DNA of 64,000 bases from Acidimicrobiales bacterium. GTDB taxonomy: Bacteria; Actinomycetota; Acidimicrobiia; Acidimicrobiales; SHLQ01. Positions 1 to 60,292 of the stretch are shown one piece after another. The position numbers and the translations under genes are program-made. The stretch's first letter is position 1; each line of letters starts with the position of its first letter. The stretch is taken from positions 18,899-82,898 of the forward strand of contig JAHDCX010000015.1 of assembly GCA_020629635.1 (NCBI GenBank), given 5' to 3'. The notes below the pieces were generated by a model. That model made no database searches. It was not told the DNA's origin and was given only the letters and a program-made list of their open reading frames with translations.

Positions 1-1288
1 TCTTGTCGTAGGTGTCCTGGTAGGTGTAGAGCCCCTGGAACGCACCGTTGCGTTCGACTCGGATCTTGAACGTCTGGGCCGTCGGGATCCCGACCATTTC
101 GTACGCCCGCCACGACAGGATCGTGCGTCCGTAGCTGCGATCGGACCAATCGGCCTGCATCGCAAACTCGTCGACCTCCTCGACGAGGATGCCGTCGAGC
201 ACCAGGTCGTAGCTCTTGGGGAGCTCCCACTTGAAGTTGATCTTCGGGCTCGAGCGCGACGCCGAGCCGCGCACCTTCACCAGAGCACCGGTGATGACCT
301 CGTCGCCGACCACGAGCGCGCTCTCATAGGTGGTGTCGGCCTGCGGGTCGTCGACCATCGCCTGATAGTCGGCGTCGGCGATGAACCACTCGAACACCGG
401 GATCGCTGAAGCGAGCCCATCGGAATAGAAGATGCCGACCGTGTCGGTCGAATCGTCGAATCGCGGCCACCGATGATCGAACGCGCCGTCGACCTCGATC
501 TGATACTCGAGCAGCTGGCCCGCCGTCTGCGCCGGGATCGTCGCCGAGTAGTTCGGGGCGACGCCCGTCATCTCGACCGTCGAGAACGCCCCCAAGTTGG
601 TTCGCCAGTTGAGACGAGGCGGCGCAGTCTCGCCGGTGATCGTCGCAGAGATCGTGACGGCTTCGCCGCCAACAGGCGCGGCGTTCGAGGCGAGGACGTC
701 GCTGATCGTCGGGGGCACACCGGTGACCGATGCACTGTTCGGGCCACCCGCCGTGTGACCGGCTGGAGCGGTCGACGCCGCCCAACCCCACGCGCTCGAG
801 CGGGCATCGAGGGCGACCAGCTCGAGGCTCGGGCCTTCGCCATCGGGGAGCACCGGCCAGACACCGGCGTCGTCGTACTCGAACTGGTGAATGACGTTGC
901 CAAGCGAGTCGATGAGCTGGACTTCTTCGCCGCCGTTCTTCAGGCCACCGTCGTAGACCCCGCCCGACACCACCCCGTATGCGGCGAGGAGACGATCGGC
1001 GTCGGGACTGATGACGAGAAACTCGCCGGCGCCAATCGAGGTCCCGGCCGGGAAGCAGTAGCTGACCCCGTCAACACACCAGTCCGACAGGTCGACGACA
1101 TCGGGTCCGGTGTTGTGGAGCTCGACGAACTCGTCGGAGTCCAGATCGTTCTCGGGGTTGTACATGATCTCGCTGATGACGACATCGACCGCGGCCGCTC
1201 GGGCCGGGTCGATCCCCATCACCAGCACAATCATCAACAACAGGGTTCCGCCGCCCACCAATGCGAGTGTGTTCCGAAGCGTGCTCAT
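1..1288 (-). CDS. Secreted lamin-tail-domain (LTD) + CotH-family protein, N-terminal part only (gene runs off the left edge)
   Basis: This is the only minus frame with no stop from 1288 to the window edge, which explains its absence from the ORF track. ATG at 1286-1288. Hand translation gives MSTLRNTLALVGGGTLLLMIVLVMG (signal/TM), then VVISEIMYNPENDLDSDEFVELHNTG...GEFLVIS (LTD signature), then KINFKWELPKSYD...QADWSDRSYGRT (CotH-like). Confidence 0.7.
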   Translation of the reverse strand, partial: MSTLRNTLALVGGGTLLLMIVLVMGIDPARAAAVDVVISEIMYNPENDLDSDEFVELHNTGPDVVDLSDWCVDGVSYCFPAGTSIGAGEFLVISPDADRLLAAYGVVSGGVYDGGLKNGGEEVQLIDSLGNVIHQFEYDDAGVWPVLPDGEGPSLELVALDARSSAWGWAASTAPAGHTAGGPNSASVTGVPPTISDVLASNAAPVGGEAVTISATITGETAPPRLNWRTNLGAFSTVEMTGVAPNYSATIPAQTAGQLLEYQIEVDGAFDHRWPRFDDSTDTVGIFYSDGLASAIPVFEWFIADADYQAMVDDPQADTTYESALVVGDEVITGALVKVRGSASRSSPKINFKWELPKSYDLVLDGILVEEVDEFAMQADWSDRSYGRTILSWRAYEMVGIPTAQTFKIRVERNGAFQGLYTYQDTYDK

Positions 1289-4835: not shown

Positions 4836-4858
4836 GTTGCCGTTCTTCTTTCCGGCCC

Positions 4859-10047: not shown

Positions 10048-10189
10048 CAGGGCCTTTCCCTTCGGCGTTGACCGATGGATCACTACACGTGGCCGTTCGA
10101 GACATCCCACCCACGGCCTGTCACCGAGAGTACCGCGAGTGCCACAGTCGATTCCGTGGGCACCCTTACCCACTCGGGTGAGGACGGAT

Positions 10190-20034: not shown

Positions 20035-20517
20035 ATGACCGAGGTACGCGAGACACTGCTGCCGGGCGTCGGGGTTCGTCACGAGTTCACCAACGAGGAC
20101 GGCCGCGACATGGGGGTGATCGTCCATCACGACGGTCGCCGCGAGTTCTTGATGTACTCGGCAAAGGATCCTGATTCGTGCGCGCAGCTCTTCACCCTGT
20201 CGGAGACCGACACGGCCACGCTCGCCGAAATCCTCGGGGTGAGCGTCGTCAATGAGGTCGTGTCCGAAGTCCGTCAGGACCTGGGAGGACTCGCGCTCGA
20301 GTGGATCGAGCTCGACGATGACCACTGCGCCGTCGGCTCATCGATCGGCGATGGCGCCTACCGCTCCATCACGGGCGCATCGATCATCGCCGTCATCCGC
20401 AACTCCCGACCGATTCCCGAACCCGGACCGGACTTCCAGCTCTTCGCCGGCGACATCGCCGTCATCGTCGGGACGCACGACGAGGTGAACGACCTCCGAC
20501 TCGCGCTCTGCAGCTGA
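20035..20517 (+). CDS. khtT: K+/H+ antiporter regulatory subunit, KhtT-like (N-domain + RCK_C/TrkA-C)
   Basis: Collinear with my recollection of B. subtilis KhtT: LPGVGVRHEF...VIVHHDGRREF...DPD...LSETDTATLAEILG, then the TrkA-C part (IEWIEL...SIGDG...ASIIAVIRN...GDIAVIVG). Confidence 0.78.
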   Translation: MTEVRETLLPGVGVRHEFTNEDGRDMGVIVHHDGRREFLMYSAKDPDSCAQLFTLSETDTATLAEILGVSVVNEVVSEVRQDLGGLALEWIELDDDHCAVGSSIGDGAYRSITGASIIAVIRNSRPIPEPGPDFQLFAGDIAVIVGTHDEVNDLRLALCS

Positions 20518-20528
20518 GTCTCGATCCG

Positions 20529-21743
20529 ATGCTCCTCGCCGCAGGGTCGGCAGAGACCGCACTCGCCTTTCTCGAGATCGGCCTTCTCGTCGGGGGGCTC
20601 GGCATCCTGTCCGCGCTCGCGAGTCGACTCGGCGTCACCGCCGTCCCGCTCTATCTGATCGCCGGGCTCGCGTTCGGCGAAGGGGGCATCAAGGAGCTCG
20701 ATGTGAGCGAGGGATTCGTCTCGCTCACCGGCGAGATCGGCGTGCTTCTCCTGCTGTTCACGCTCGGCCTCGAATACACCGACCACGAGCTCCGGGAAGG
20801 CCTCCGTACCGGGACACGCCAGGCGACCCTCGACATGGTGTTGAGCGCCGGAACGGGGCTGGCCTTCGGATTGCTGCTCGGCTGGTCGCCGCTTGCGTCG
20901 GTCCTGCTCGCCGGCGTGACCTGGGTGTCGTCGTCAGGCGTGATCTCCAAGGTGCTCGATGACCTGGGCCGACTCGGCAACCGCGAGACACCCTCGATCC
21001 TCAACCTGCTGGTGATGGAGGATCTCGCCATGGCGATCTACCTTCCGGTCGTCGCCGCACTCATCGTCGGCGGCACCGTGACCGAGACGATCTCGGGAGT
21101 GGCCGTCGCCCTCGGCGTGGTCGCCGTCATCCTCGCGGCAGCACTCCGGTACGGCACCGCACTCAGCGACCGGCTCGTTCGGACCTCCGACGAATCGTTG
21201 CTGCTCACGGTCTTCGGGCTCGTGCTGTTCGTGGCCGGCACCGCCCAGACTCTCCAGGTCTCTGGCGCGATCGGGGCGTTTCTGGTCGGGCTGGCCCTGT
21301 CGGGGAAGACCGAGGAACGCACGGCCGTTCTGGTCTCGCCGTTGCGCGATCTGTTCGCGGCGACGTTCTTTGTCTTCTTCTCGTTCCAGATCGACCCCAC
21401 CGACCTGCTCTCGATGCTCGGCTGGGCCGCCCTGTTGGCGGTCATCACGTCGATCACGAAGGTCGCCACGGGTTGGTATGCGGCCGCCCGGGCCGGGGTC
21501 GCCCGCAACGGGCGCGTGCGGGCCGGAACGATGTTGATCGCTCGCGGCGAGTTCTCGATCGTGATCGCCGCGCTCGGTGCCGATCTGGCCGATGGACCCG
21601 AGCTCGGCGCGCTCTCGGCTGGCTACGTCCTGCTCACCGCCGTCCTCGGTCCGCTGGCCACTCGCTTCAGCGCACCAATCGATTCGGGCGTGCAACGAGC
21701 CCTGTCGCCATTCCGTCAACGAATGCGTTTCAGCACCTCATAG
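20529..21743 (+). CDS. CPA2-family cation:proton antiporter (KhtU/Kef-like)
   Basis: 404 aa, about 12 TM. LGVTAVPLYLIAGLAFGEGG and LLLLFTLGLEY are typical of the Na_H_Exchanger fold. Immediately downstream of the khtT-like gene. Confidence 0.82.
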   Translation: MLLAAGSAETALAFLEIGLLVGGLGILSALASRLGVTAVPLYLIAGLAFGEGGIKELDVSEGFVSLTGEIGVLLLLFTLGLEYTDHELREGLRTGTRQATLDMVLSAGTGLAFGLLLGWSPLASVLLAGVTWVSSSGVISKVLDDLGRLGNRETPSILNLLVMEDLAMAIYLPVVAALIVGGTVTETISGVAVALGVVAVILAAALRYGTALSDRLVRTSDESLLLTVFGLVLFVAGTAQTLQVSGAIGAFLVGLALSGKTEERTAVLVSPLRDLFAATFFVFFSFQIDPTDLLSMLGWAALLAVITSITKVATGWYAAARAGVARNGRVRAGTMLIARGEFSIVIAALGADLADGPELGALSAGYVLLTAVLGPLATRFSAPIDSGVQRALSPFRQRMRFSTS

Positions 21744-21821
21744 GAATAAAAGTTCATACTTCTGCCCTTTTTCATAAGGTATTACGACCAGTGTGCCGAT
21801 GAAACTGTCGAGGAGGAGACC

Positions 21822-23996: not shown

Positions 23997-24072
23997 GGGC
24001 TGCGCGCCTCACGCACCACGTTCTCGTGGCGCGGTTCCACACGGCTCTTCCGCACCCGTTACCGTCGCGTCG

Positions 24073-26655
24073 GTGGCAGACACGAGGGGCGTCCCACACG
24101 TCGAGTCGACGGCCGAACGCTCGCCCGACCTCGGATTGAGCACGTTCGGCGGTGTCTTCACGCCGAGCATCCTGACGATCCTCGGTCTGGTCCTGTTCCT
24201 TCGTCTCGGGGTCACCACCGGAAACGTCGGCCTCCTGCCAATGCTGTTGATCCTCGGCGGGTCGACGGCCGTGTCGGTACTCACCACCATCTCCCTCTCC
24301 GCGATCGCGACAAACCTGAAGGTGGGTGGAGGTGGCGTCTACTTCATCATCTCGCGCACCCTGGGACCGGCCTTCGGTGGCTCGATCGGACTCGTCCTCT
24401 ACCTCGGCATGTCGGTGTCGGTCGCCTTCTATGCCATCGGTTTCGGCGAGGCCGTCGCCGCCGTCATCGGGACCACGTCGGGCGCCGCTCCGCGCCTCAT
24501 CGCCGTGGCCGCCATCATCGCCCTGCTCGGCATCGCCTGGCTCGGCGCGGACATCGCCACCCGCGCCCAGTACGTCGTCATGGCCTGTCTCGCTGCTGCA
24601 CTCCTGGCCTACGTGATCGGTGTCGCCAATGATCTCGAGCCGGGCAGGATCGCGGATTCGTGGACGGCCGGCGACGACGGCGTCGGCTTCTGGGTGACCT
24701 TCGCCCTGTTCTTCCCGGCGATCACCGGCTTCACGCAAGGCGTCGCCATGAGCGGCGATCTCCGAACTCCCAGCCAGAGCATCATCCGCGGCACGTTTCT
24801 CGCCATCGGGCTGTCGACCGCGGTGTATCTGCTGGTCATCGTCAGTTTCACGATGACCGCGGACCTCGGCGAGCTCCGTGACGAACCGGCGATCATGCGT
24901 CGACTGTCCCTGCATCCGGCCTTCATCGACGTCGGGGTGATCTCTGCGACGCTGTCGTCGGCGATCGCCTCATTGATGGGAGCGCCGCGAACGCTGCAGC
25001 GCCTCGCCGCCGATCGCCTCGTTCCCGTCCTCGAGCCCTTTGCCGTCGGCGCAGGTCCAGCCAACAACCCCCGGCGCGGCGTGTTGCTCTCGGCGGTGAT
25101 TGCCATGATCACCGTGGCGATCGGCGATCTCGATCTCGTGGCGCCGATCATCTCGATGTTCTTCCTCGCGAGCTACGGGTTGATCAACTACGCCACCTAC
25201 GCCGAAGCCCGGGCGGCGTCGACGTCGTTCCGACCGACCTTCCGCTTCTTCGACTGGCGTCTCAGCCTCCTCGGGACGGTCGGGTGTATCGGCGCGATTC
25301 TCGCGATCGACCCGATCGCCGGTGCGGTTGCCGGGCTGCTCATCGCGGCGCTGCATCGATACATCGCCCGCACCTCTGGCCGAGCTCGCTGGGCGGACTC
25401 CACGCGCGGCTTCCACGTGTCGGAAATCCGCAACCACCTCCATCTGATGCGCGCAACCGACGACGTGAGTCGGGACTGGCGCCCCTACACCGTGGCCTTC
25501 GTCCCCCGGAACCCGGGCCGACGTCACCGTCTCGTGGAGGTCGCCAACCAGCTCGAAGGTCGCGCCGGATTCACTTCTGTCGTGCGGATCCTCGTCGGGA
25601 CGGGTCCGGTGATTCGCAAGCGAGCTGGCGAGGTCGACGTCGAGCTCCAACGCGAGTTGGAGCATTCGCATCCGTCGACGTTCGGGCGTGTGGTCGTCGC
25701 CGACGACGTCTCATCTGGCGTCGCCGCGGTCCTCCAGGCCCATGGCATCGGCCCCTTGCAACCCAACATCGCCTTGTTCAACCTGGCACACCCCTCCGAC
25801 GACGCGGTGGAGAACGCAGAGTCGTGGGGAGCGATGATCCAGACCGCCCGCAGATTCGGCTCCAACGTGGCGGTCCTGCACCATGACGACGCGGCGACGG
25901 CCACCGACCGCCAGAGGCTCGACGTGTGGTGGAGTGACGACGAGTCAGGCGCCTTGTTGGTTCTGCTCGCATGGTTGATGACTCGCACGTCGGAGTGGGA
26001 TGACGCCGATGTCCGGGTCTGGGTGGAGCGTCGCGATGACGTCGAACGTCCATCCGAGACCCTCGACCGGGTACGCCAACTGCTCGACGAGGCCCGACTT
26101 CCGGTCCGAGTGGCCGGTTCCGCCAAAGCGGAGTCCTTCGCGAAGACGGTTGGCGATGCCTCCTTTGTCCTCGCGCCCATGCGGGTCCGCCACAAGGACG
26201 GGTTCGGGCCCGGTGGAGCGTCCATCGCCGACCTGGTCAGGACGGGAGTACCCGACACCTTGTTCGTGCATGTGTCGGAGGCGGTGGAGTTGGACGTGCA
26301 GCCCGATCAGTCGCAGTCGCGACACCTCGCTGATGCGGTGGATCGAGCAGAGCGACTCCGAAGCCACGCACAAGAGCTGAGTACGACGGCAGCCGGACTG
26401 GTCGTTCGAGCCGAGACGGTTCGCCTCGAGCACGATGGAGACGACAGTGCTCCCGAAGTCGCCGCCGCGGCCAAGGATGCGGCTGCGGCGCAACGCGCGT
26501 ATCTGGATGCGCGCGCTCGTGCAGAGGAGGCGTTCGTTCGGGTTCGTTCGCTGGACCCGTCGATGCTCGATGGCGAGCTCGATCCCGAAGTCTGGTTGGC
26601 GGAGTCGTCTCCCACGCGATTCGGCTTCACCGCGTCGGAGACACCGCCGCGCTGA
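24073..26655 (+). CDS. APC-superfamily transporter of the cation-chloride cotransporter (SLC12/CCC) type with large cytoplasmic C-terminal domain
   Basis: LSTFGGVFTPSILTILGLVLFLRLGVTTGNVG and GGGVYFIISRTLGPAFGGSIG, 12 TM, then a ~400-aa soluble domain as in bacterial CCC homologues. Confidence 0.75.
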   Translation: MADTRGVPHVESTAERSPDLGLSTFGGVFTPSILTILGLVLFLRLGVTTGNVGLLPMLLILGGSTAVSVLTTISLSAIATNLKVGGGGVYFIISRTLGPAFGGSIGLVLYLGMSVSVAFYAIGFGEAVAAVIGTTSGAAPRLIAVAAIIALLGIAWLGADIATRAQYVVMACLAAALLAYVIGVANDLEPGRIADSWTAGDDGVGFWVTFALFFPAITGFTQGVAMSGDLRTPSQSIIRGTFLAIGLSTAVYLLVIVSFTMTADLGELRDEPAIMRRLSLHPAFIDVGVISATLSSAIASLMGAPRTLQRLAADRLVPVLEPFAVGAGPANNPRRGVLLSAVIAMITVAIGDLDLVAPIISMFFLASYGLINYATYAEARAASTSFRPTFRFFDWRLSLLGTVGCIGAILAIDPIAGAVAGLLIAALHRYIARTSGRARWADSTRGFHVSEIRNHLHLMRATDDVSRDWRPYTVAFVPRNPGRRHRLVEVANQLEGRAGFTSVVRILVGTGPVIRKRAGEVDVELQRELEHSHPSTFGRVVVADDVSSGVAAVLQAHGIGPLQPNIALFNLAHPSDDAVENAESWGAMIQTARRFGSNVAVLHHDDAATATDRQRLDVWWSDDESGALLVLLAWLMTRTSEWDDADVRVWVERRDDVERPSETLDRVRQLLDEARLPVRVAGSAKAESFAKTVGDASFVLAPMRVRHKDGFGPGGASIADLVRTGVPDTLFVHVSEAVELDVQPDQSQSRHLADAVDRAERLRSHAQELSTTAAGLVVRAETVRLEHDGDDSAPEVAAAAKDAAAAQRAYLDARARAEEAFVRVRSLDPSMLDGELDPEVWLAESSPTRFGFTASETPPR

Positions 26656-27919: not shown

Positions 27920-29098
27920 TCAGCTGAGCGAACCCGCCGGCAACCGCTCGTCGACCCCGGGACGGTCATAGTCTTCACGAAGACGCCGCAACCGCGAGTG
28001 GAACTGGTCGCGATCGATCGTGCACAGGCGAAGGTGCCGGCGCCCACCTTCGGGCCCGAAGGCCGTTCGGCCATGCAACATCCGCTGATTGTCGTACACG
28101 ACCGCCTGACCCGGCTCGATCCTGAACTGCACCGCAGCGGAAGGATCGTTGATGCGCCGCGAGAACTCGATCAGCGCTCGGTAGTACGGACCCATCATCG
28201 ACGGGTCGATGTCGAGGGTGCCCATCGAACGTTCGTGGAAGCGAACACCCGCGATCTCGCGGTCCCGATCCAACGAGATGATCGGTGCATGCGCCACGAG
28301 ATGCACGTCCTCACCCTGATCCACCGAATCGGTGCGATGGCGGACAAACGGGATCGACACCTCCGCAAGAACATCGAACGCGTCCGGGTCATCCTCCTCG
28401 AGCGACGCCGCAACGGCGAATCCGTCCACCAACAGCGTGTCGCCGCCCGAGGTACTGGCCTCCACACAGTGCAACATCGACGTCCCCGACGGCGTGTACC
28501 GGTACGGATCGTCGGTGTGTGGGTCGAGGGCGAGCCCGGTTTGGGAGAACTCCCACACCTCGGGCTCCACGACGATGTCGAAGATCCGGCCGAAGTCGGT
28601 CTCTCGGATTCGACCGATCAGCGCGGCGAGCGACTCGGTGCCGAGCTCCTCGGTCGGAACGTCGTCGACGATCGCGGCACCGTACTCGGCGACGGCATCG
28701 AGCAGCTCGAGGTGTCCCCGGCTCCGAGGGCTCGGCAGCGAGACGCGAGGGAGCTCCACGCCCGCACGCACGGGCGTGATGCGCCGCGGCTTCGACCGAC
28801 GTCGCGTCGGCTCTGGGTCATGGGTCGCGAGCCAGTCAGGATCGAACGACGATCGATGCCCGTCGGAGTACTCGATCTCGACAGAACCGTCTTCGCCGAT
28901 CCCGCCCGACACGACGGACAGATCGGGGTCGAGGTCGACGACCGAGAAGGTCCGGAATGCCTTCAGACGATCGCCACCCGAGGGACAGTTGTCCCGAAGC
29001 CACAGCGAATGCAGACGAGTTCTTCGTCCATCCGACCACCGAAGGATGACTCCGTCGTCGTACGGATCGACCCCAATGACCGTCGTCTCGAGTTCCAT
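27920..29098 (-). CDS. TauD/TfdA-family Fe(II)/2-oxoglutarate dioxygenase with DUF971 N-domain (gamma-butyrobetaine hydroxylase-like architecture)
   Basis: Start at ATG 29098 (MELETTVIG). DUF971-like VILRWSDGRRTRLHSLWLRDNCPS. HxD in LDPHTDDPY. Distal His in NQRMLHGRTAF. Confidence 0.78.
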   Translation of the reverse strand: MELETTVIGVDPYDDGVILRWSDGRRTRLHSLWLRDNCPSGGDRLKAFRTFSVVDLDPDLSVVSGGIGEDGSVEIEYSDGHRSSFDPDWLATHDPEPTRRRSKPRRITPVRAGVELPRVSLPSPRSRGHLELLDAVAEYGAAIVDDVPTEELGTESLAALIGRIRETDFGRIFDIVVEPEVWEFSQTGLALDPHTDDPYRYTPSGTSMLHCVEASTSGGDTLLVDGFAVAASLEEDDPDAFDVLAEVSIPFVRHRTDSVDQGEDVHLVAHAPIISLDRDREIAGVRFHERSMGTLDIDPSMMGPYYRALIEFSRRINDPSAAVQFRIEPGQAVVYDNQRMLHGRTAFGPEGGRRHLRLCTIDRDQFHSRLRRLREDYDRPGVDERLPAGSLS

Positions 29099-29142
29099 CG
29101 CCAAACCGTAGAACCACGGTCGGTGACGGGGCAACCGTCGGC

Positions 29143-30006
29143 TCAGCCGCCGCTGCCGTACAGACCGAACGCTTCGGCCTGTTCGTCGTTGAGGTGGTAG
29201 CTCTCCTCGGCGTTGGGGAACGCGCCCGAACGGACGTCGTCCGCATACGCGGACAGCGCGTCGATGGTCGAGGTCTTCATGTCCGCGTAGCGGCGGACGA
29301 ACTTGGGCACGAAACGGTCCTCGATGCCGAGGACATCGTGATACACGAGCACCTGGCCGTCGCAATGCGGACCGGCGCCGATGCCGATCGTCGGGACATC
29401 GACGGCGTCAGTGATCGCCTCGGCGACCTTGACCGGGATTCCCTCGAGCACGATCGCAAAGCACCCGGCGTGTTGGAGCGCCTTCGCGTCTTCGATCAAC
29501 TCGACGGCAGCTTCGGCCTGGCGGCCCTGCACCCGGAAGCCGCCCATCGCGTGCACCGACTGCGGAGTCAGACCGACGTGGCCCATCACGGGGATCTCCG
29601 CGTCGACCAACGCTTCGATCATCGGCACACGCTTGCGACCACCCTCGAGCTTGACGCATTGTGCGCCGGCCCGAATCAGCGTCGCCGCGTTGCGGACCGT
29701 CTCCTCCACCGACACGTGGAACGACATCCACGGCAGGTCCCCGACGATCAGGCAATTCGGGTTCGCCCGAGCGACGGCGCGCGTGTGGTGCGCGATGTCG
29801 TCGACGGTCACCTGCAGGGTGTCGTCGTAGCCGAGCACGACCATCGCCACCGAGTCACCGACGAGGATGATGTCGATGCCCGCATCGCTCGCGGCTCGAG
29901 CGCCGGGCGCGTCGTAGGCGGTGATCATGGCAATCGCGTCGTCGCCGTCACGCACCTTGCGTCCGGCGATCTTGGGCACGGTGAGCTTTCCCGAAGAGGG
30001 GGCCAT
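29143..30006 (-). CDS. panB: 3-methyl-2-oxobutanoate hydroxymethyltransferase
   Basis: ATG 30006 preceded by GGAAGGAGA. ITAYDAPGARAASDAGIDIILVGDS, KLEGG, GHVGLTPQS, IGIGAG. Confidence 0.92.
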   Translation of the reverse strand: MAPSSGKLTVPKIAGRKVRDGDDAIAMITAYDAPGARAASDAGIDIILVGDSVAMVVLGYDDTLQVTVDDIAHHTRAVARANPNCLIVGDLPWMSFHVSVEETVRNAATLIRAGAQCVKLEGGRKRVPMIEALVDAEIPVMGHVGLTPQSVHAMGGFRVQGRQAEAAVELIEDAKALQHAGCFAIVLEGIPVKVAEAITDAVDVPTIGIGAGPHCDGQVLVYHDVLGIEDRFVPKFVRRYADMKTSTIDALSAYADDVRSGAFPNAEESYHLNDEQAEAFGLYGSGG

Positions 30007-31180: not shown

Positions 31181-32461
31181 TCAGGCGTGATCGTCGGCGA
31201 GGAGCCAGGCCGATTCCTCCTCGGCGGTTGCCGGTCCATCACGGAGGCGGCGCTCCTGCAGACGGGCGACCGCGGCCCCGACCGCCGGTCCCGGGTCGAG
31301 CGCCAGCAGCTCCATGATCTGTCCCCCATCGAGCACGGGACCGAGATCCTCGAGGTCCTCGCGTTGTCCGAGATTCTTCAGGGACGCGGCGAAACGGTCG
31401 TCGCCACCACGAACCTCGACGAGTCGAACGAGCACGTCGGTCGCGTCGAAACCGACCGCGAACACCACTCGCCGGATCGACTCGTCAGTCCATTCCGTAT
31501 CCCACCCGAGCACACCATCGGCGGCCTCGATGAGCGTTCGGATCGATCGCTGCTCGGCGGTCGAGTACCGCAGGCGATCGAGTCGGGCCACCCGCTCGGG
31601 CGGCTCACCGATCGAGTGCACCACGAGACGGCGCAGCTCGAGATCGATGGGTGCGCGCCCGAGCATCGCACCCAGCGCGTCGACGTCGACGCCTGACGTC
31701 GGACCGAACACGTTGGCCAACACCCCACAGCGATCCAGAAACCGCAGGCCCGGCGTCGGGTCAGGGGCGCCGAGCAGTTTGTCGAGCTCCTCACGAATGC
31801 GCTCCACCGAGATGATCGACATTCGCTCGGCGAGATCGGCTGCCGCGCGCTCGACCGCCGGATCGACGGACAGGTCGTAGCGAGCGACAAACCGGGCCCC
31901 GCGGAGAATCCGGAGTGGGTCGTCGCCGAAGGAAACGGCCGGGTCGATCGGCGTCCGAAGGATCCCCGCCTCGAGATCGTCGATCCCGCCGAACGGGTCG
32001 ATCCGTTGCGCCCCCGGCAACTCGATCGCCATGGCGTTGATCGTGAAGTCTCGCCGTGACAGATCGCCGTCGATGTCGTCGCCGAACGCGACGTCGGGTT
32101 TACGCGTGTCCGTCTCGTACCACTCGGCCCGATGCGTCGTGATCTCGTAGTCACGACCCGCGATGCGGCAACCGATCGTGCCGAATCGCTCGCCTTGCGC
32201 CCAGAGGTCATCCGCGATCGGACCGACGATTGCTTTGATCCGGTCCGGGCGGGCATCGGTGGTCAGATCGAAGTCGAGGGCCTCGAGTGGCACACCGAGA
32301 TGAAGGTCCCGAACGATCCCGCCGACGAGATGGATTCGATGACCGGCCGCCACGAATCGCTCGGCCACGACCGACGCTTCGGCGATCACCGCCTCCAGAT
32401 ACGGGTCCACCCTTCGAGAGCCTACGGCGAGGCCAACAGCCCACCCGGTACCCTTCCCCAA
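31181..32461 (-). CDS. cca: CCA tRNA nucleotidyltransferase (PcnA-type, class II with HD-like C-terminal region)
   Basis: HLVGGIVRDLHLG, DFDLTTDARPD, GTIG, RRDFTINAMA, FGDDPLRILRGARF. Start uncertain: TTG 32461 or GTG 32410. Confidence 0.8.
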   Translation of the reverse strand: MGKGTGWAVGLAVGSRRVDPYLEAVIAEASVVAERFVAAGHRIHLVGGIVRDLHLGVPLEALDFDLTTDARPDRIKAIVGPIADDLWAQGERFGTIGCRIAGRDYEITTHRAEWYETDTRKPDVAFGDDIDGDLSRRDFTINAMAIELPGAQRIDPFGGIDDLEAGILRTPIDPAVSFGDDPLRILRGARFVARYDLSVDPAVERAAADLAERMSIISVERIREELDKLLGAPDPTPGLRFLDRCGVLANVFGPTSGVDVDALGAMLGRAPIDLELRRLVVHSIGEPPERVARLDRLRYSTAEQRSIRTLIEAADGVLGWDTEWTDESIRRVVFAVGFDATDVLVRLVEVRGGDDRFAASLKNLGQREDLEDLGPVLDGGQIMELLALDPGPAVGAAVARLQERRLRDGPATAEEESAWLLADDHA

Positions 32462-32499
32462 TGCTCGATGGGAGCGTTCGACCAGTCCGCGGTGTACGG

Positions 32500-33186
32500 A
32501 TGCTGACTCGCAACGACGCTCCCTTCGCCGTGCAGATCGTGCCGCGGCGTCGACTCAACGTCGACGAGGTCCGTCGATCGGTGGCCCGGGCAGAACGGCT
32601 GGGCGAGGGTGGCCGCATCGTCACCAGCGCCCTCAGCCCGATCGAGACCGACAGTTTCGTGGATGCCGGCTTCACGCTGCGAGAAGACCTCATTCTGCTT
32701 CGACACGGATTGGTCTCGATCCCGACGGCCAGACCCATCGAGATCCGGAACGGCCGCCGCAACGACACCGATCGAGTACTCAGCCTCGACCGACGCTCGT
32801 TCGACGACTTCTGGACCATCGATCGCCACGGCTTGCGATCGGCACGCAACGCAACTCCGCGGCATCGGTATCGGGTGGCGTTGGGCAACCATCCCGGCGA
32901 CTCGGCGATCGGCGGCCGACCCGAACCCATCGGGTATGCCATCACCGGTCTCGCTGGCGGACACAGCTACTTCCAGCGCCTCGGCGTCGAACCAACCCAA
33001 CGACGCGCCGGTGTTGGATCGGCGCTCGTGATCGACGCGCTGCTGTGGGCCCGCACCAACGGTGCCCACACGATGCTCGTCAACACCCAGACGTCCAATC
33101 TCGGTGCCGCGTCGCTCTATCGGTCGCTCGGCTTCGTGGAGTCTCCGGATCGACTGCATGTGCTCGAATGGCCCGCTCCGTCATGA
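32500..33186 (+). CDS. GNAT-family N-acetyltransferase
   Basis: C-terminal acetyl-CoA motif LGVEPTQRRAGVGSALVIDALLWARTNGAHTMLVNTQTSNLGAASLYRSLGF. Start is ATG 32500 or ATG 32461. Confidence 0.62.
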   Translation: MLTRNDAPFAVQIVPRRRLNVDEVRRSVARAERLGEGGRIVTSALSPIETDSFVDAGFTLREDLILLRHGLVSIPTARPIEIRNGRRNDTDRVLSLDRRSFDDFWTIDRHGLRSARNATPRHRYRVALGNHPGDSAIGGRPEPIGYAITGLAGGHSYFQRLGVEPTQRRAGVGSALVIDALLWARTNGAHTMLVNTQTSNLGAASLYRSLGFVESPDRLHVLEWPAPS

Positions 33187-35210
33187 AGACCTGTCTGTCG
33201 GCATCCGTGCACGTGATCGTCGTGGCCGTTGCCGTGATTTCGTTCGTCGGTCCGACGGCGCCTGCTGCAGCACAGTCCACCGGCTCAATCGATTTGATCG
33301 GACAGAGCGCCTGGGTCGACCAGGGAGGCATCTTCGACCTCCAACTGCGAGTCGTCGGCGCAGACCCGGACTCCACGATCGAACTTCGGGTGCTCGAACC
33401 CTGGACGGATCGTCAAGACTTCAGCCAGAACCCTGACGGAACCGGTCGTGAGGCACGTCTGGAGGTCGAACCCTTGCGGCTCGGAGAACTCCAGACGACG
33501 AGCAACGAGGTCCTCCCGTTCAGCCTCGCGGTCGAGGATCCGGATTCGATCGGCGAACCCGACGCCGACGGACCCGGACTGCCTCTGCTCGAACCCCAAG
33601 ACGGTCCGGCCGTCTACCCACTCGAGGTGCTCCTTCGATCATCGGACGGAACGACCGTTGATCGGCTCGTCACGACGATGGTCGTGTTGCCCCGCCGATT
33701 CGAGGCGAATCCACTCCAGACGCTTTTCGTCTTCGATGACCTCGGCCTCGGCCCACAGGACGCGACGGAGGAGACCGAGTCCCTCCGAGCCGTGATCGAC
33801 GCACTCGACGCCCATCCTGACGCTCCCGTCGCGTTGCGCTTCGACCCCTCGATCCTCGACGAGGCGAACGCTGACCCAGAGTTCGATGCCCTGCTCACCC
33901 GGGCGGGAGAACGACTGGACGGCGATGACCTCCTCGCCGCCACCTGGGTCGACGTCGACGAACAGGCGTGGATCGATGCGGAGATGACCTCGACGCTCGA
34001 CCTGCTCTACCAGCGAGGTGCCGAGACCCTGACCCGGACACTCGGCGACGCACCGCAGACACAGGTCGCCCTCATCGACTCTTCGCTCACCGCCTCCGGG
34101 CTCGACGTCAGCGTCGATCGGGGTGCGGCCGGGGTCATCGTCGAGCCCGGCCGAGTCACCCCGCTGGATCCGGCGACCTTCCCGGAGTCGCTCACCACCA
34201 GCTTTGTGATCCCGACAGCGAGCGGCCGCACCATCCCCGCATTCGAAGCGGACCCGGGACTGCGCGCCCACTTCTCCCCCGCCGACGCGCCGGTCCTCCA
34301 CGCGAATCGCCTCCTCGCAGATCTGGCCCTTCTTGCCCTCCAACAACCCGACGTTCGCCAAGCCGCTGTCATCTGGCCCGACGACGATGCGGTCGTCGAT
34401 CGAACCTTTCTCAACGTCGCCTTGTCGGGCATCGAACGGATCCCGATCCTCGACGCCGCTACCGCACGAGAGATGCTGACCGAGACGGCGTTCACCCCCG
34501 CAACGGGACCCGGCACGCTGTCGGCCCCGCTCCGACGCGAGCTCCGTCCGACCCCCTCCGACCCGCTCGGTGGGTATCGCACCGACTTCGCGCAGGCTCG
34601 GACCTCCATCGACAGCTGGCGCACGGTCATCGTCGGCGATCCCGCTGGCTCGGACGAGCTCGAATCTCTGCTGCTTCGGTCGGCCGACCAGACGATCACC
34701 GACAGCGCCCGAGCCGAGCAGATCGATGAGATCTACCGACGGATCGACGCCCAGAAGGACGGCGCAATCAGCGCGCCAGCAGCGGAGACGATCACCTTCA
34801 CCAGCCGAGAGGCCACGGTGCCACTGATCGTCGAGAACAACTTCGGGTTCGCGGCCGACGTCGCCCTCGTCTTCGACTCCGAGAAACTCGAGTTTCCCGA
34901 GGGTCGCCAGATCGACGTCCGGCTCGAGCCCGGCACGAATCGCATCGACGTTCCGGTCCTCGCCCGCGCCTCTGGCGACTCGCCGATCCGCATCCAGGTG
35001 CTCAGCCCCGACCGGGCCGTGCTGTTGAGCTCGTCCGAAGTGATCGTCCGGACCTTCGCGTTCTCCGGCGTCGGCGTCATCATCGGGGTCATCTCGATCA
35101 TCGTCTTGTTGATCTGGTGGCTGCGGCATCGACGAAGCACCCGCACTACGCTCGTCGACCAGCAATCGGCTCCCGACCCGGAGTCCGAGGATCTGCGGAT
35201 CGGAGTCTGA
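33183..35210 (+). CDS. Large secreted/anchored conserved protein, Rv3909-like by position (DUF6049-type; from memory)
   Basis: ATG 33183 overlaps the GNAT stop (ATGA). Signal peptide MKTCLSASVHVIVVAVAVISFVGPTAPAAAQ. C-terminal TM GVGVIIGVISIIVLLIWWL. It occupies the slot next to cca that Rv3909 holds in mycobacteria. Confidence 0.6.
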   Translation: MKTCLSASVHVIVVAVAVISFVGPTAPAAAQSTGSIDLIGQSAWVDQGGIFDLQLRVVGADPDSTIELRVLEPWTDRQDFSQNPDGTGREARLEVEPLRLGELQTTSNEVLPFSLAVEDPDSIGEPDADGPGLPLLEPQDGPAVYPLEVLLRSSDGTTVDRLVTTMVVLPRRFEANPLQTLFVFDDLGLGPQDATEETESLRAVIDALDAHPDAPVALRFDPSILDEANADPEFDALLTRAGERLDGDDLLAATWVDVDEQAWIDAEMTSTLDLLYQRGAETLTRTLGDAPQTQVALIDSSLTASGLDVSVDRGAAGVIVEPGRVTPLDPATFPESLTTSFVIPTASGRTIPAFEADPGLRAHFSPADAPVLHANRLLADLALLALQQPDVRQAAVIWPDDDAVVDRTFLNVALSGIERIPILDAATAREMLTETAFTPATGPGTLSAPLRRELRPTPSDPLGGYRTDFAQARTSIDSWRTVIVGDPAGSDELESLLLRSADQTITDSARAEQIDEIYRRIDAQKDGAISAPAAETITFTSREATVPLIVENNFGFAADVALVFDSEKLEFPEGRQIDVRLEPGTNRIDVPVLARASGDSPIRIQVLSPDRAVLLSSSEVIVRTFAFSGVGVIIGVISIIVLLIWWLRHRRSTRTTLVDQQSAPDPESEDLRIGV

Positions 35211-35215
35211 AAGCA

Positions 35216-36058
35216 ATGAGCGTTCGTATCGTCACCGACAGCGCCTGTGACCTGTCTGACCAAGAACTCGCCGAGTGGGGAATCGGCATGGTTCCCCTGT
35301 CGATCCGGTTCGGTGATGACGAGTTCGTCGACCGCACCGAACTCGACACCGACACCTTCTACCAAAAGCTCGCCACCTCCGAAGCGCTGCCCGAGACGGC
35401 CGCGCCTTCGCCCGGAGCGTTCGCGGCGATGTTCAATCAGATGGCCGCCGAAGGTGCCACGGCCGTCGTGTGCATCAACCTCTCCGAGGCACTGTCGGCC
35501 ACCATCCAGGCCGCCCGCACCGCCGCCCAGAGCGACGAGGTGTCCATCGACGTTCGGGTCGTCAACTCGAAGTCGGTCACCGGTGGCCTCGGCTCGATCG
35601 TGCTGGCCGCCGCCAGCGCGGCACGTGATGGGGCAACGGCAGACGACATCGTCGCGATGGCCGAATCGATGACCGCTCGCACCCGCGTCTACGCCACCCT
35701 CGACACCTTGGAGAACCTCAAGAAGGGTGGACGGATCGGCGGCGCGCAGGCCGCGCTCGGCGCCATGTTGTCGATCAAGCCGCTCCTCGACCTGAGCAGC
35801 GGCGAGGTGGTCGCTGCTGGCAAGCAACGCACCCGCAAGCGGGCGCTCGGCTGGCTCGCCGAGCAACTCGCCGAGGCCGGTGACGACGTCGACAACCTGG
35901 CGATTCTCCACTCGAACGCCACCGACATCGACGACTTCTTGGCGTCGATCTCGCACCTTCCCGCCGCATCAACCGCCCGCACCAACGTCATTGGCGCGGT
36001 CATCGGCACCCACGGTGGGCCGGGCGTCATCGGCATCACGTACCAAGTACGGGACTGA
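35216..36058 (+). CDS. DegV-family fatty-acid-binding protein
   Basis: MSVRIVTDSACDL..., PETAAPSPGAF, NSKSVTGGLG, LENLKKGGRIG, LSIKPLL, HGGPGVIGI. Confidence 0.88.
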   Translation: MSVRIVTDSACDLSDQELAEWGIGMVPLSIRFGDDEFVDRTELDTDTFYQKLATSEALPETAAPSPGAFAAMFNQMAAEGATAVVCINLSEALSATIQAARTAAQSDEVSIDVRVVNSKSVTGGLGSIVLAAASAARDGATADDIVAMAESMTARTRVYATLDTLENLKKGGRIGGAQAALGAMLSIKPLLDLSSGEVVAAGKQRTRKRALGWLAEQLAEAGDDVDNLAILHSNATDIDDFLASISHLPAASTARTNVIGAVIGTHGGPGVIGITYQVRD

Positions 36059-49560: not shown

Positions 49561-49867
49561 CGGTGAGATCCGGGCCACGGACCTCACCGCGCGTGTACAC
49601 AGCTGTGGATAAGTTGTGGACCAACCCCCGAGATCCCCGTGGGCGCGCTGTGGAAGTGATTGTGGACTCGACGCTGCGCGCTGAGGACAACGAACCCGTC
49701 ATCCACACACCCAACCGGCCGCCCGGCCGACCCTGTGCACGATGGTGGACAACGCGCGAACAACAAAATCCCGGAATTTCAGGCCGAGATCATGTTCATC
49801 CACAATCCACACGCCTACTTTCTCCTCTACCGAATTCATTTCCGATCACCAAAGAGATGTGGACACG
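49561..49867. other. oriC candidate (dnaA-dnaN spacer with DnaA-box cluster and AT-rich segments)
   Basis: Nine 9-mers matching TT(A/G)TCCACA or its complement at 7/9 to 9/9: 49604-12 TGTGGATAA, 49615-23 TGTGGACCA, 49649-57 TGTGGAAGT, 49661-69 TGTGGACTC, 49699-707 TCATCCACA, 49744-52 GGTGGACAA, 49796-804 TCATCCACA, 49803-11 CAATCCACA, 49858-66 TGTGGACAC. AT-rich stretches at about 49757-49790 and 49815-49856. Confidence 0.72.
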
Positions 49868-52989: not shown

Positions 52990-53010
52990 GTTGAGTGGGT
53001 CTGACTGAAG
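52990..53010. promoter_or_regulatory. HAIR-like HspR operator upstream of dnaK
   Basis: GTTGAGT-gggtctg-ACTGAAG versus consensus CTTGAGT-N7-ACTCAAG (one mismatch in each arm). Confidence 0.55.
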
Positions 53011-56549: not shown

Positions 56550-56876
56550 GTGGAGGCCAAGGCGGTGTACGTGATCTCGGTCGCCGCGGAGCTGACCGGT
56601 ATGCATCCTCAGACGCTTCGCATCTACGAACGGAAGGGTTTGGTGCACCCCGCTCGAACGGGTGGGGGAAGTCGCCGATACTCCGATGAGGACGTGGCGC
56701 TCCTCCGACGAATCGCCGAGCTGACGTCCGAGGGCATGAACCTGGTTGGGGTGAAGCGCATCCTCGATCTTGAACGGCGGGTGGCCGAGCTCGAATCCGA
56801 GCTCGCCGGGCTCCGAACCAAACATCGCCGGGACCTTGTACCGCTCCGTCAAACGTTGTCGCGTTACGAGGGTTGA
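56550..56876 (+). CDS. hspR: MerR-family heat-shock repressor HspR
   Basis: YVISVAAELTGMHPQTLRIYERKGLVHPARTGGGSRRYSDEDV. Last gene of the dnaK operon, as in Streptomyces and Mycobacterium. Confidence 0.85.
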   Translation: MEAKAVYVISVAAELTGMHPQTLRIYERKGLVHPARTGGGSRRYSDEDVALLRRIAELTSEGMNLVGVKRILDLERRVAELESELAGLRTKHRRDLVPLRQTLSRYEG

Positions 56877-57706
56877 CGTCGCGCCGCTTGTCGGGCGCGC
56901 CGTTGTTGGCCCTCGCGGCGAAGTGCGTCGGCGTCGCTCGTCGACATGAACGTGTCTCGCCAGTCGGCGGAGCCGTGCCAGACGACGGGGAGTTCGACCG
57001 TGGTGCGTGGCATCGTCATGGCCACCGCAGCCTCGAGTGCGGCGCGGAGGATCCGTCGTTGTTGACGTGGGTCGTCGGCGGGGCCGACGGGGTTACCGAG
57101 CGGGAGATCGGTGAAGACGAAGCGGGGCACACCGAGTTCTTCGATGATGTCTCGGGCGGACCCGATGATGAGCGTGGGGATGCCGGCGGCTTCGAGCACG
57201 TTTGCGGTCAGACCGACCGATTGGTGACAGACCGGTCAAAGCGGTGCGAACACGACGAGGTCGACCTCGTCGTGTTGAACGGCGTCGACCAGGGCGTGCG
57301 CGGTCTCGGTGGTTTGGCGCTGGCTGTAGACGGTGGCAATCCCGTGGAACCGTGGGGCGATGCTGCCGATCACGCCATCCTCGGCGAGCGCGACGAGGTG
57401 GTCGATCGGGAGAAAGGATCCGAGGTCGTCGGTGTGGGTTGCCTCGTGGTGCCAGTGCAGATGGTCGGTGACGAGACGCGGCGGGACCGGAAACGTGGGA
57501 GCGGCGAAGGGTTCGCGTCGACGATGCCCGGGGAGTGCCGCCGTGGTGACGAGTCCGACGCGTGCCTGCTCGAGGGGGGTACGGATTCGACTGAAGGCGA
57601 CCTCGTCGTGGACCGCCCAGGCGTAGGGAGTGTCGTAGCCCATGGCGGCGTAGTACTCGCGGGAGGCGTCGATGTAGCTCAGGTGGCTGCGATGGGTCCG
57701 GGTCAC
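56864..57706 (-). CDS. GrdB-family (glycine/sarcosine/betaine/D-proline reductase selenoprotein B-like) protein with in-frame TGA at 57236-57238 (candidate selenocysteine; otherwise a disrupted gene)
   Basis: Tracked ORFs 57236-57925 and 56864-57199 are in the same frame, separated only by TGA plus 12 sense codons: ...DEVDLVVFAPL-TGA-PVCHQSVGLTANVLEAAGIPTLIIGSARD... N-terminal HLSYIDASREYYAAMGYDTPYAWA and C-terminal GIPTLIIGS...PRFVFTDLPLGNPVG resemble the family. Start set at GTG 57706 so as not to cover the clpB HAIR and promoter. Confidence 0.5.
57205..57219 (-). other. SECIS-like hairpin downstream of the in-frame UGA
   Basis: mRNA CGGUC-GGUCU-GACCG begins 16 nt after the UGA. The loop GGU lies about 25-27 nt from the U of UGA. 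Confidence 0.3.
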
Positions 57707-57752
57707 CAGTCCATGATGGTGGAGGATCGCGGAATAGATCCAACGCTCAGAA

Positions 57753-57773
57753 GTTGAGTGAGTCAGACTCAAG
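57753..57773. promoter_or_regulatory. HAIR (HspR operator) upstream of clpB
   Basis: GTTGAGT-gagtcag-ACTCAAG, with perfect TTGAGT/ACTCAA arms and N7 spacing, 24 nt upstream of the clpB ATG. Confidence 0.72.
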
Positions 57774-57796
57774 TTCACGAAAGGCAGCGAGTACCC

Positions 57797-60292
<2,496 letters not shown>

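What the first reader, a model, noticed from the sequence alone, without database searches (positions are those of the whole stretch)
56864..57706. In-frame UGA fuses two ORFs of a GrdB-family reductase: candidate selenocysteine codon with a SECIS-like hairpin
Seen in sequence:
- The minus-strand ORFs 57236-57925 and 56864-57199 share one frame and are interrupted only by TGA at 57236-57238.
- Read through, the protein is continuous: ...VDLVVFAPL-U-PVCHQSVGLTANVLEAAGIPTLIIGSARDIIE... This gives a U-x-x-C arrangement, which looks like a redox motif.
- Sixteen nt after the UGA the mRNA can form CGGUC-GGUCU-GACCG. The GGU in its loop lies about 25 nt from the UGA.

Established knowledge:
- GrdB and PrdB, the founding members of this family, are selenoproteins.
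- In my recollection of the E. coli fdhF SECIS, the apical G/U sit about 23-24 nt from the UGA, so the geometry here is close.

Inference: this is a Sec-decoding gene in a high-GC actinobacterial-type genome, where selenoproteins are uncommon, and an automatic annotator would split or truncate it. It sits divergently from clpB, and the two genes share a spacer that contains an HspR operator.
Basis: partly seen in the sequence, partly recalled or inferred. Interest (0 to 1): 0.75.

Follow-up and report, generated by a model that had tools for sequence, protein, structure and literature searches.

The report
PrdB-like selenoprotein gene with SECIS hairpin

Summary
One minus-strand gene (57706..56864) is interrupted only by TGA at 57238-57236, and three independent run assemblies give the same bases.

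- **Codon conservation.** All 149 related loci where the motif could be read carry TGA at this codon, never TAA or TAG.
- **Sec/Cys pairing.** Forty full-length homologues have Cys there (C-P-[VI]-C-H-Q). Seventy-nine database proteins are cut off exactly there.
- **Match to a known selenoprotein.** The TGA aligns with the TGA of a RefSeq-annotated PrdB selenoprotein.
- **Translation past the TGA.** The part after the TGA is under purifying selection (dN/dS 0.20-0.27).
- **SECIS hairpin.** The rest of the family uses a stronger hairpin 4 nt closer to the UGA.

The family corresponds to the "proline reductase PrdB, UxxC" selenoprotein family reported from the Sargasso Sea in 2005 and the GOS survey in 2008, so this is a new member of a known kind.

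No PrdA partner gene is linked, so its biochemistry is probably not D-proline reduction. In this Acidimicrobiia-like sub-clade the gene lies between hspR and clpB, 46 bp from an HspR operator.

I could not test whether this genome has selA, selB, selC and selD.

The parts
56864..57706 (-). Complete read-through coding sequence of the PrdB-like selenoprotein: 280 codons, GTG start, one in-frame UGA, TAA stop at 56866-56864.
   Evidence: The N-terminus aligns with the starts of 31 homologues. The full length aligns with 25 Cys-form homologues.
57239..57706 (-). N-terminal part (residues 1-156). A gene caller would report this as a separate 155-157 aa protein.
   Evidence: 79 of 120 database homologues end exactly here, at ...VDLAVLIPL.
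57236..57238 (-). UGA read as selenocysteine (residue 157). It is the first residue of the U-P-V-C motif.
   Evidence: TGA in 149 of 149 related loci where the motif could be read. Cys in 40 full-length homologues. It aligns with the TGA of annotated PrdB from Peptoclostridium acidaminophilum. Base call confirmed.
57205..57219 (-). SECIS-type hairpin inside the coding sequence: stem CGGUC/GACCG (57219-57215 with 57209-57205) and loop GGUCU (57214-57210). There are 21 nt between the UGA and the loop.
   Evidence: Paired in 12 of 12 sub-clade sequences. G-C to A-U compensatory change at pair 22-32 and U-A to U-G at pair 23-31. Energy -6.1 to -6.6 kcal/mol alone and -8.7 with a lower stem. Shares the hexamer GGUCUG with the E. 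coli fdhF SECIS.
56867..57235 (-). C-terminal part (residues 158-280). It carries the resolving Cys160, H161, Q162 and the conserved DI.E..GVPRF.F.D.PLGN block.
   Evidence: All invariant columns of the family are kept. dN/dS is 0.20-0.27 against six relatives, which makes this part more conserved than the N-terminal part.
57754..57772 (.). HspR operator (HAIR, TTGAGT-N7-ACTCAA) in the 90-bp divergent spacer. It lies 46 bp upstream of the selenoprotein start and 24 bp upstream of the clpB ATG. That it regulates the selenoprotein gene is my inference.
   Evidence: Two sites in the window against 0.03 expected by chance; the other is upstream of dnaK. A HAIR sits at the same place in L001, L083 and L084, and further upstream in L088.

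Best explanation
This is one gene for a 280-residue selenoprotein of the PrdB/GrdB superfamily. It belongs to the "orphan PrdB-like, U-x-x-C" branch.

How the UGA is read (inferred from the standard bacterial mechanism). UGA-157 is followed by C, and a short hairpin lies 16 nt downstream with loop GGUCU. SelB carrying Sec-tRNA(Sec) would bind that hairpin and deliver selenocysteine to the UGA. Translation then continues through P-V-C-H-Q to the TAA at 56864.

How the protein works (inferred). In a confident structure model of a Cys homologue, the equivalent residue caps the N-terminus of a helix that follows a beta-strand, and the second Cys lies in the first helical turn. This is the usual arrangement of a selenol/thiol redox pair. 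Such a pair cycles through a selenenyl-sulfide, as proposed for PrdB.

What it probably is not. No PrdA (pyruvoyl) partner gene is linked in 152 loci, so the substrate is probably not D-proline and remains unknown.

What is shown and what is inferred. Shown: the gene structure, conservation of the TGA, the Sec/Cys pairing, homology of the position with PrdB Sec, conservation of the hairpin, and selection on the downstream half. Inferred: SelB-dependent decoding in this organism, the redox chemistry, and any HspR control.
For: - TGA at the codon in 149 of 149 loci where the motif could be read, drawn from at least seven phyla.
- Among database proteins, 40 have Cys at the position and 79 are truncated there.
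- The codon aligns with the TGA in RefSeq PrdB.
- NCBIfam TIGR04483 PrdB scores E = 2e-21 across profile positions 21-232 of 238.
- The family hairpin is 93% paired, has 23 double-change cells, and 0 of 500 shuffles reach the observed value.
- The sub-clade hairpin is 100% paired with a compensatory change.
- Synonymous sites are frozen inside the hairpin and vary freely outside it. Ser is AGU or AGC and never UCN; Gly is GGU.
- The downstream half has dN/dS 0.20-0.27.
- The base call is confirmed in three runs.
- TGA is the ordinary stop codon of this genome, so no alternative genetic code is in play.
- AlphaFold2 model of the Cys homologue P0002: pLDDT 89.9, strand 160-164, Cys167, helix 168-183.
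- Literature: the PrdB UxxC selenoprotein family is described in PMC1088965, PMC2398784 and PMC9312934. Sec machinery is reported in all 84 complete genomes of a marine Acidimicrobiia order (bioRxiv 10.64898/2026.04.03.716425).
Against: - No selA, selB, selD or tRNA-Sec lies in the 64-kb window. The rest of the genome could not be examined.
- The window's hairpin is weak: 5 bp, -6.1 to -6.6 kcal/mol alone, against the published limit of -7.5. An alternative fold that includes the UGA is 1.8 kcal/mol more stable over positions 4-50.
- The window does not keep the strong 7-bp hairpin used by about 90% of the family. Only 3 of 7 pairs are possible.
- Scores are far below the curated cut-offs for PrdB and GrdB (76.6 bits against 300). 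Pfam GRDB gives no hit.
- There is no RNA or protein evidence.
Confidence: 0.88

Rival explanations
1. The UGA is decoded in this organism, but not as selenocysteine. Possible routes are Cys or Trp insertion by a suppressor or recoded tRNA, or near-cognate read-through, in a lineage that lost or never had SelB-dependent decoding.
For: Sec machinery was not found in the window and could not be looked for elsewhere. The window's hairpin is weaker than the family norm and is shifted.
Against: The hairpin is conserved with covariation and with frozen synonymous sites in the sub-clade, which has no explanation without an RNA-binding factor. The closest Cys forms simply use TGC or TGT, so a lineage without Sec would be expected to convert the codon. 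Sec machinery is documented in marine Acidimicrobiia (bioRxiv 10.64898/2026.04.03.716425).
Confidence: 0.06
2. The TGA is a true stop. Either the locus is a pseudogene, or it is two separate genes: a 156-aa N-terminal protein and a 111-aa protein starting at GTG 57199.
For: This is how gene callers annotate the locus (155 + 122 aa in L001). ORF lists show a GTG start 12 codons after the TGA.
Against: A second gene starting at 57199 would omit P-V-C-H-Q, which is invariant. The stop is always TGA and never TAA or TAG in 149 loci. The two halves are always adjacent and in frame, and they are fused in the Cys forms. The downstream half has dN/dS 0.20-0.27.
Confidence: 0.04
3. The TGA is an assembly or sequencing error for TGC or TGT.
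For: None found.
Against: Three independent run assemblies at about 1000x depth give the same sequence with no variant. Every relative where the motif could be read also has TGA.
Confidence: 0.01

Closest known systems
The "Proline reductase PrdB" U-x-x-C selenoprotein family of marine metagenomes (Zhang, Fomenko and Gladyshev 2005, PMC1088965; Zhang and Gladyshev 2008, PMC2398784). NCBI's pipeline names such proteins [quoted passage not shown].
   Same: Same U-x-x-C motif, same Sec/Cys homologue pairs, and the same habitats. A Sargasso Sea contig (AACY020524380.1, locus L154) carries a member of the same alignment family with TGA at the same codon. There were 42 such genes in the Sargasso Sea data, and 235 Sec forms with 110 Cys forms in GOS.
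   Different: Nothing essential differs. This copy comes from an Acidimicrobiia-like genome, sits in a heat-shock gene neighbourhood, and uses the minority hairpin register.
PrdB, the selenocysteine subunit of clostridial D-proline reductase. The comparison here is with Peptoclostridium acidaminophilum PrdB, WP_148296006.1.
   Same: They are homologous over about 200 residues (32% identity, E = 1e-20). The Sec codon is at the same alignment column, followed by x-x-C-H. The surrounding strand and helix are similar: VDAAVFTAG-U-GTCH...LEESGIPTIII against VDLVVFAPL-U-PVCH...LEAAGIPTLII.
   Different: - The score is 76.6 bits against a cut-off of 300 for the PrdB equivalog.
- The window protein has an extra N-terminal SYID.SR.YY segment and a C-terminal extension of about 40 residues.
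- It has a different DI.E..GVPRF.F.D.PLGN block.
- No prdA or prdC is linked in 152 loci.
- Many hosts are labelled as taxa not associated with Stickland fermentation (Reyranella, Pseudomonadales, Ilumatobacter).
GrdB, GrdF and GrdH, the substrate-specific selenoprotein B subunits of glycine, sarcosine and betaine reductases.
   Same: Weak homology limited to the C-terminal third of GrdB (E = 1e-7 to 1e-8; profile positions about 278-420 of 431). GrdB also has U-x-x-C, extended to UxxCxxC according to PMC13188914.
   Different: GrdB is about 430 residues long and works with GrdA, GrdC and GrdE. None of these is linked here. The scores are below all cut-offs.
The E. coli fdhF SECIS element.
   Same: Both are hairpins within the coding sequence just after the UGA, with apical loop GGUC. 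They share the hexamer GGUCUG.
   Different: The fdhF loop is at +22..25, on a longer stem with a bulged U. Here the loop is at +25..29, one codon further, on a 5-bp stem.

Membership tests
Bacterial selenoprotein gene (SelB/SECIS-dependent UGA decoding) | In-frame UGA that is conserved in orthologues and replaced by Cys codons in other homologues | tested here: met
   TGA in 149 of 149 loci where the motif could be read. Cys in 40 full-length homologues, and 79 proteins truncated at the site.
Bacterial selenoprotein gene (SelB/SECIS-dependent UGA decoding) | Hairpin that fits the bSECIS model: loop 3-9 nt, stem 4-16 bp, G in the first two loop positions, 16-37 nt from the UGA to the loop (PMC13188914, Fig. 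2) | tested here: met
   Loop GGUCU (5 nt), 5-bp stem, 21 nt spacing. Conserved with covariation in 12 relatives.
Bacterial selenoprotein gene (SelB/SECIS-dependent UGA decoding) | bSECIS free energy at or below -7.5 kcal/mol | tested here: inconclusive
   The hairpin alone gives -6.1 to -6.6 kcal/mol. With a 3-bp lower stem it gives -8.7. A competing fold reaches -10.5.
Bacterial selenoprotein gene (SelB/SECIS-dependent UGA decoding) | selA, selB, selC (tRNA-Sec) and selD present in the same genome | not testable with these tools
   None is present in the 64-kb window. The rest of the genome is not available.
Bacterial selenoprotein gene (SelB/SECIS-dependent UGA decoding) | Selenium present in the protein | not testable with these tools
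   This needs 75Se labelling or mass spectrometry.
PrdB/GrdB superfamily | Significant sequence similarity across the domain | tested here: met
   TIGR04483 scores E = 2e-21 over profile positions 21-232 of 238. tblastn to annotated prdB gives E = 1e-20.
PrdB/GrdB superfamily | Sec at the position homologous to the catalytic Sec, in a U-x-x-C motif | tested here: met
   The window TGA is in the same alignment column as the TGA of RefSeq PrdB, and in both it is followed by x-x-C-H.
D-proline reductase PrdB proper (NCBIfam TIGR04483 equivalog) | Score above the curated cut-off | tested here: not met
   76.6 bits against a cut-off of 300. Pfam PF07355 gives no hit at E <= 0.01.
D-proline reductase PrdB proper (NCBIfam TIGR04483 equivalog) | Linked prdA (pyruvoyl proprotein) and prd operon partners | tested here: not met
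   No partner family is conserved across 152 loci. The most frequent real neighbour is a short-chain dehydrogenase in 21 loci. The window's neighbours are hspR and clpB.
Marine "PrdB" UxxC selenoprotein family (Zhang et al. 2005 and 2008) | U-x-x-C motif, PrdB/GRDB-type homology, Cys homologues, and presence in ocean metagenomes | tested here: met
   A Sargasso Sea contig (L154) carries a member. Family features are given in PMC1088965 Table 3 and PMC2398784 Table 2.
HspR heat-shock regulon | HAIR operator in the promoter region | tested here: met
   TTGAGTGAGTCAGACTCAA at 57754-57772, 46 bp upstream of the start codon. It is shared with clpB and conserved in L001, L083 and L084.
HspR heat-shock regulon | HspR-dependent, heat-inducible transcription of this gene | not testable with these tools
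   No RNA runs are available. No promoter-like hexamers were found.

The most novel reading that the evidence does not exclude
In this Acidimicrobiia sub-clade the orphan PrdB-like selenoprotein would be a member of the HspR heat-shock regulon. It sits between hspR-dnaJ-grpE-dnaK and clpB, and shares with clpB a 90-bp divergent spacer that holds the HspR operator. On this reading it works as a stress-induced selenol/thiol oxidoreductase in protein or redox quality control, not as a Stickland-type amino-acid reductase. A second point follows: the family would have two interchangeable SECIS registers, with loops at +21 and at +25. Some members (L039, L050, L056) can form either, which would show how a SECIS can migrate by about one codon without loss of decoding.
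Probability: 0.3. Interest if true: 0.5.

Novelty: new member of a known kind. Interest (0 to 1): 0.27.

Why it matters
For annotation, this locus should be called as one selenoprotein gene, not as two hypothetical proteins. The same error is widespread: 79 of the 120 best database homologues are truncated at this codon, and many of the 2688 cluster representatives end or start there.

For biology, the interest is modest. The function of the abundant PrdB-like proteins that lack a PrdA partner has stayed unknown since they were reported in 2005. Two things seen here give concrete handles on that question. One is the conserved placement next to an HspR operator in one Acidimicrobiia sub-clade. 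The other is the pair of SECIS registers. Neither changes what kind of thing this gene is.

Tried and rejected
- **Rfam.** No family matched at gathering score across the window. A permissive scan of 57100-57300 gave only noise. Bacterial SECIS elements are poorly represented in Rfam.
- **Sec machinery in the window and fetched loci.** ARAGORN found no tRNA-Sec in the window or in 60 related loci. tblastn with E. coli SelD found nothing in the window or in any of 158 loci.
- **Other selenoprotein genes in the window.** A scan for in-frame TGA codons with coding signal on both sides found only antisense shadows. The same-frame pairs purA/purD and dnaK/grpE are ordinary adjacent genes.
- **Finding the source genome.** The window's ClpB is not on record in the assembly index. 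The first metagenome scan with the single protein found nothing.
- **Sec machinery of this organism through its sequencing runs.** I obtained selD-selA-selB-selC loci from Miltoncostaea (L160) and from a MAG (L161).
- **Solved structures.** There was no sequence match in the PDB. Foldseek found no match better than E = 0.05 for a confident model. No solved structure of this fold was found in the PDB copy searched.
- **Promoters, terminators and RNA.** The promoter and terminator scan found nothing. No RNA-seq runs were available.
- **Conserved partner genes.** None was found across the family.
- **Structure prediction of the window protein itself.** I used the Cys homologue P0002 instead.

Full report
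**1. The observation**

On the minus strand the reading frame that begins at GTG 57706 runs to TAA 56866-56864. Its only interruption is TGA at 57238-57236. The read-through product has 280 residues and reads ...VDLVVFAPL-U-PVCHQSVGLTANVLEAAGIPTLIIG....

The GTG start is supported by 31 homologues. Their N-termini begin about nine residues before the conserved S-Y-I-D motif, as this one does.

- 5' arm CGGUC, 57219-57215
- loop GGUCU, 57214-57210
- 3' arm GACCG, 57209-57205

It starts 16 nt after the UGA.

The base call is sound. Logan contigs of three runs from one alga-associated metagenome sample cover 56800-57800 with no difference, at about 1000x depth.

**2. Is the TGA a coding codon?**

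A search of 5.8 billion proteins returned 120 listed homologues.
- 79 end exactly at the residue before the TGA (...VDLAVLIPL).
- 40 are full length and have Cys at that position, in the invariant motif C-P-[VI]-C-H-Q.

I then fetched related DNA loci:
- 80 loci from species-representative genomes
- 76 loci from JGI metagenomes
- 2 loci for the closest relative

In every one of the 149 loci where the motif could be read, the codon is TGA. It is never TAA, TAG or a sense codon. By their record titles the hosts span Acidimicrobiia, Chloroflexota, Syntrophia/Desulfobacterota, Myxococcota, Binatia, Spirochaetales, Alphaproteobacteria (Reyranella) and Pseudomonadales.

The sequence after the TGA keeps every column that is invariant in the family. 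Compared with six relatives, the downstream half has dN/dS 0.20-0.27 at dS of about 0.9-1.6, and 61-72% amino-acid identity. That makes it more conserved than the upstream half.

TGA is also the commonest ordinary stop codon in the window. A genetic code that reassigns UGA throughout is therefore excluded.

A RefSeq-annotated PrdB selenoprotein on the Peptoclostridium acidaminophilum plasmid has its in-frame TGA in the same alignment column:
- PrdB: VDAAVFTAG-U-GTCH
- window: VDLVVFAPL-U-PVCH

**3. The RNA signal**

About 90% of the family has a strong hairpin beginning 10 nt after the UGA: ACCAGAC-CGUGA-GUCUGGU. On 118 distinct sequences it shows the following:
- 93% of cells are paired.
- 23 cells have changes on both sides (C-G to U-A and G-C to A-U).
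- None of 500 shuffles reaches the observed value.
- Every slid register collapses to 15-33% pairing.

Synonymous positions are almost frozen inside the hairpin and vary freely just outside it. Inside, Thr is ACC, Val is GUG, Ser is AGU or AGC and never UCN, and Leu is CUG or UUG, co-varying with Gln CAG or CAA.

The window cannot form this hairpin; only 3 of 7 pairs are possible.

Eleven other sequences share that second register. They include the closest relatives (L001, L083, L084, L086, L087, L088). All 60 cells are paired. Pair 22-32 shows a G-C to A-U compensatory change in four sequences. Pair 23-31 shows U-A to U-G in four sequences, tolerated even though it changes Thr to Ala or Val.

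Measured against the published bacterial SECIS model (PMC13188914, Fig. 2), the window hairpin fits as follows:

| Criterion | Model | Window hairpin |
|---|---|---|
| Loop length | 3-9 nt | 5 nt (GGUCU) |
| Stem length | 4-16 bp | 5 bp |
| G in first two loop positions | required | GG, then U |
| UGA to loop | 16-37 nt | 21 nt |
| Free energy | <= -7.5 kcal/mol | -6.1 to -6.6 alone; -8.7 with a 3-bp lower stem |

A competing fold that includes the UGA reaches -10.5 kcal/mol. The element is therefore real by comparison with relatives, but weak by thermodynamics. On its own it is not better than chance (z = 0.22).

The E. coli fdhF element, read from MG1655, has loop GGUC at +22..25. It shares GGUCUG with the window, where the loop lies one codon further from the UGA.

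**4. What the protein is**

NCBIfam gives D-proline reductase PrdB (TIGR04483) at E = 2e-21 over nearly the whole profile. The score is only 76.6 bits against a cut-off of 300. The GrdB, GrdF and GrdH models score E = 1e-7 to 1e-8. Pfam GRDB gives nothing at E <= 0.01.

A profile search of 1.84 billion cluster representatives finds 2688 relatives (256 at E <= 1e-30). Many of them end or begin at the Sec position.

The literature describes this group:
- "Proline reductase PrdB" with a UXXC redox motif was the third most abundant selenoprotein family in the Sargasso Sea, with 42 genes (PMC1088965).
- It had 235 Sec forms and 110 Cys forms in the GOS survey (PMC2398784, Table 2).

One of my loci (L154) is a Sargasso Sea contig. 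NCBI's pipeline names a Cys-form homologue in Roseomonas [quoted passage not shown].

**5. How it probably works**

No solved structure matches by sequence. A confident AlphaFold2 model of the Cys homologue P0002 (pLDDT 89.9) finds no structural neighbour better than E = 0.05.

In that model the Sec-equivalent Cys167 follows strand 160-164 and caps helix 168-183. Cys170 lies in the first turn of the helix. This is the geometry of a redox-active selenol/thiol pair.

By analogy with PrdB, I infer a cycle through a selenenyl-sulfide that an external dithiol then reduces.

Bona fide D-proline reductase needs PrdA, the pyruvoyl subunit. I clustered all ORFs within 4.5 kb of the gene in 152 loci and found no conserved partner. 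The best real neighbour family is a short-chain dehydrogenase, present in 21 loci. I therefore do not file the gene as PrdB proper. Its substrate is unknown.

**6. Surroundings**

The window is the replication-origin region of an actinobacterial, Acidimicrobiia-like chromosome of 65% G+C. The gene order is: dnaB, trxB, parB, parA, jag, yidC, dnaA, dnaN, a phosphoglycerate mutase, dnaK, grpE, dnaJ, hspR, the selenoprotein gene, clpB, purA, purD.

The selenoprotein gene converges on hspR, with a 13-bp overlap. It diverges from clpB across a 90-bp spacer.

That spacer holds a perfect HAIR core at 57754-57772. A second site lies upstream of dnaK at 52991-53009. Two sites were found against 0.03 expected by chance.

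This neighbourhood is kept in the sub-clade that shares the second hairpin register:
- hspR is convergent in the eight sub-clade loci, counting the window.
- clpB lies upstream on the opposite strand in L001, L002, L083 and L088, and about 4 kb away in L086.
- A HAIR lies about 45-110 bp upstream of the start in L001, L083 and L084, and about 830 bp upstream in L088.

ClpB is 91% identical between the window and L001, whereas the selenoprotein N-terminal part is 66% identical. Control of this gene by HspR is my inference only.

**7. What could not be done**

The window contains no selA, selB, selD or tRNA-Sec. The source genome is not in the assembly index.

I tried to look for Sec machinery among this sample's contigs by laying them on sel loci of other Actinomycetota.

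Indirect support comes from the literature. Sec machinery is reported in all 84 complete genomes of the marine Acidimicrobiia order Actinomarinales (bioRxiv 10.64898/2026.04.03.716425). Actinobacteria were one of three selenoprotein-family-rich phyla in PMC1794560.

**8. Verdict**

The gene is a new member of a selenoprotein family known since 2005. It is a homologue of PrdB but not PrdB proper.

The points of some novelty are the second SECIS register and the conserved placement beside an HspR operator. Interest is low to moderate.

Noticed in passing
window 52991-53009: A second HspR operator (TTGAGTGGGTCTGACTGAA, one mismatch) lies upstream of dnaK. The dnaK-grpE-dnaJ-hspR operon and clpB therefore form one contiguous HspR-controlled block, with the selenoprotein gene inside it.
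   Followed up: partly
window 49604-49804 and 3344-3414: Two clusters of three DnaA-box-like 9-mers each. One lies in the dnaA-dnaN spacer and is the likely oriC. The other is near 3.4 kb, beside dnaB. In all, 6 matches were found against 2.4 expected.
   Followed up: no
L039, L050, L056 (Acidimicrobiia / Candidatus Poriferisodalis), positions +14 to +34 after the UGA: These sequences can form either SECIS register: CAGAC-GAUCG-GUCUG or CGAUC-GGUCU-GAUCG. They look like intermediates between the majority hairpin and the one used in the window.
   Followed up: partly
window 27923-29407 (-): An ORF resembling 2-trimethylaminoethylphosphonate dioxygenase TmpA and gamma-butyrobetaine dioxygenase (E = 1e-81, below the cut-offs). 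This is of possible interest for an alga-associated bacterium.
   Followed up: no
window 20322-26652 (+): A run of three ion-transport genes: two CPA2 cation/proton antiporters and a 910-codon K-Cl-cotransporter-like ORF.
   Followed up: no
window 32343-35207 (+) and 34736-35968 (-): Two long overlapping ORFs (955 and 411 codons) on opposite strands, with no NCBIfam match. Which of them is the real gene was not resolved.
   Followed up: no
window 9104-11017 (+): A 638-codon open frame in which only residues 370-615 match the mycothiol deacetylases MshB and Mca. The N-terminal 370 codons may be non-coding or an unknown domain.
   Followed up: no
L164 (Roseomonas haemaphysalidis plasmid) 3965-6350: A Cys-form homologue of the family lies tail to tail with the gene for the protein adenylyltransferase SelO. 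This is a single case and was not seen as a conserved neighbour elsewhere.
   Followed up: no
L163 (Peptoclostridium acidaminophilum plasmid) 5941-6654: The RefSeq-annotated prdB selenoprotein gene here has no listed prdA beside it. The plasmid gene table is incomplete, and there is an unannotated gap of 1.3 kb upstream.
   Followed up: no
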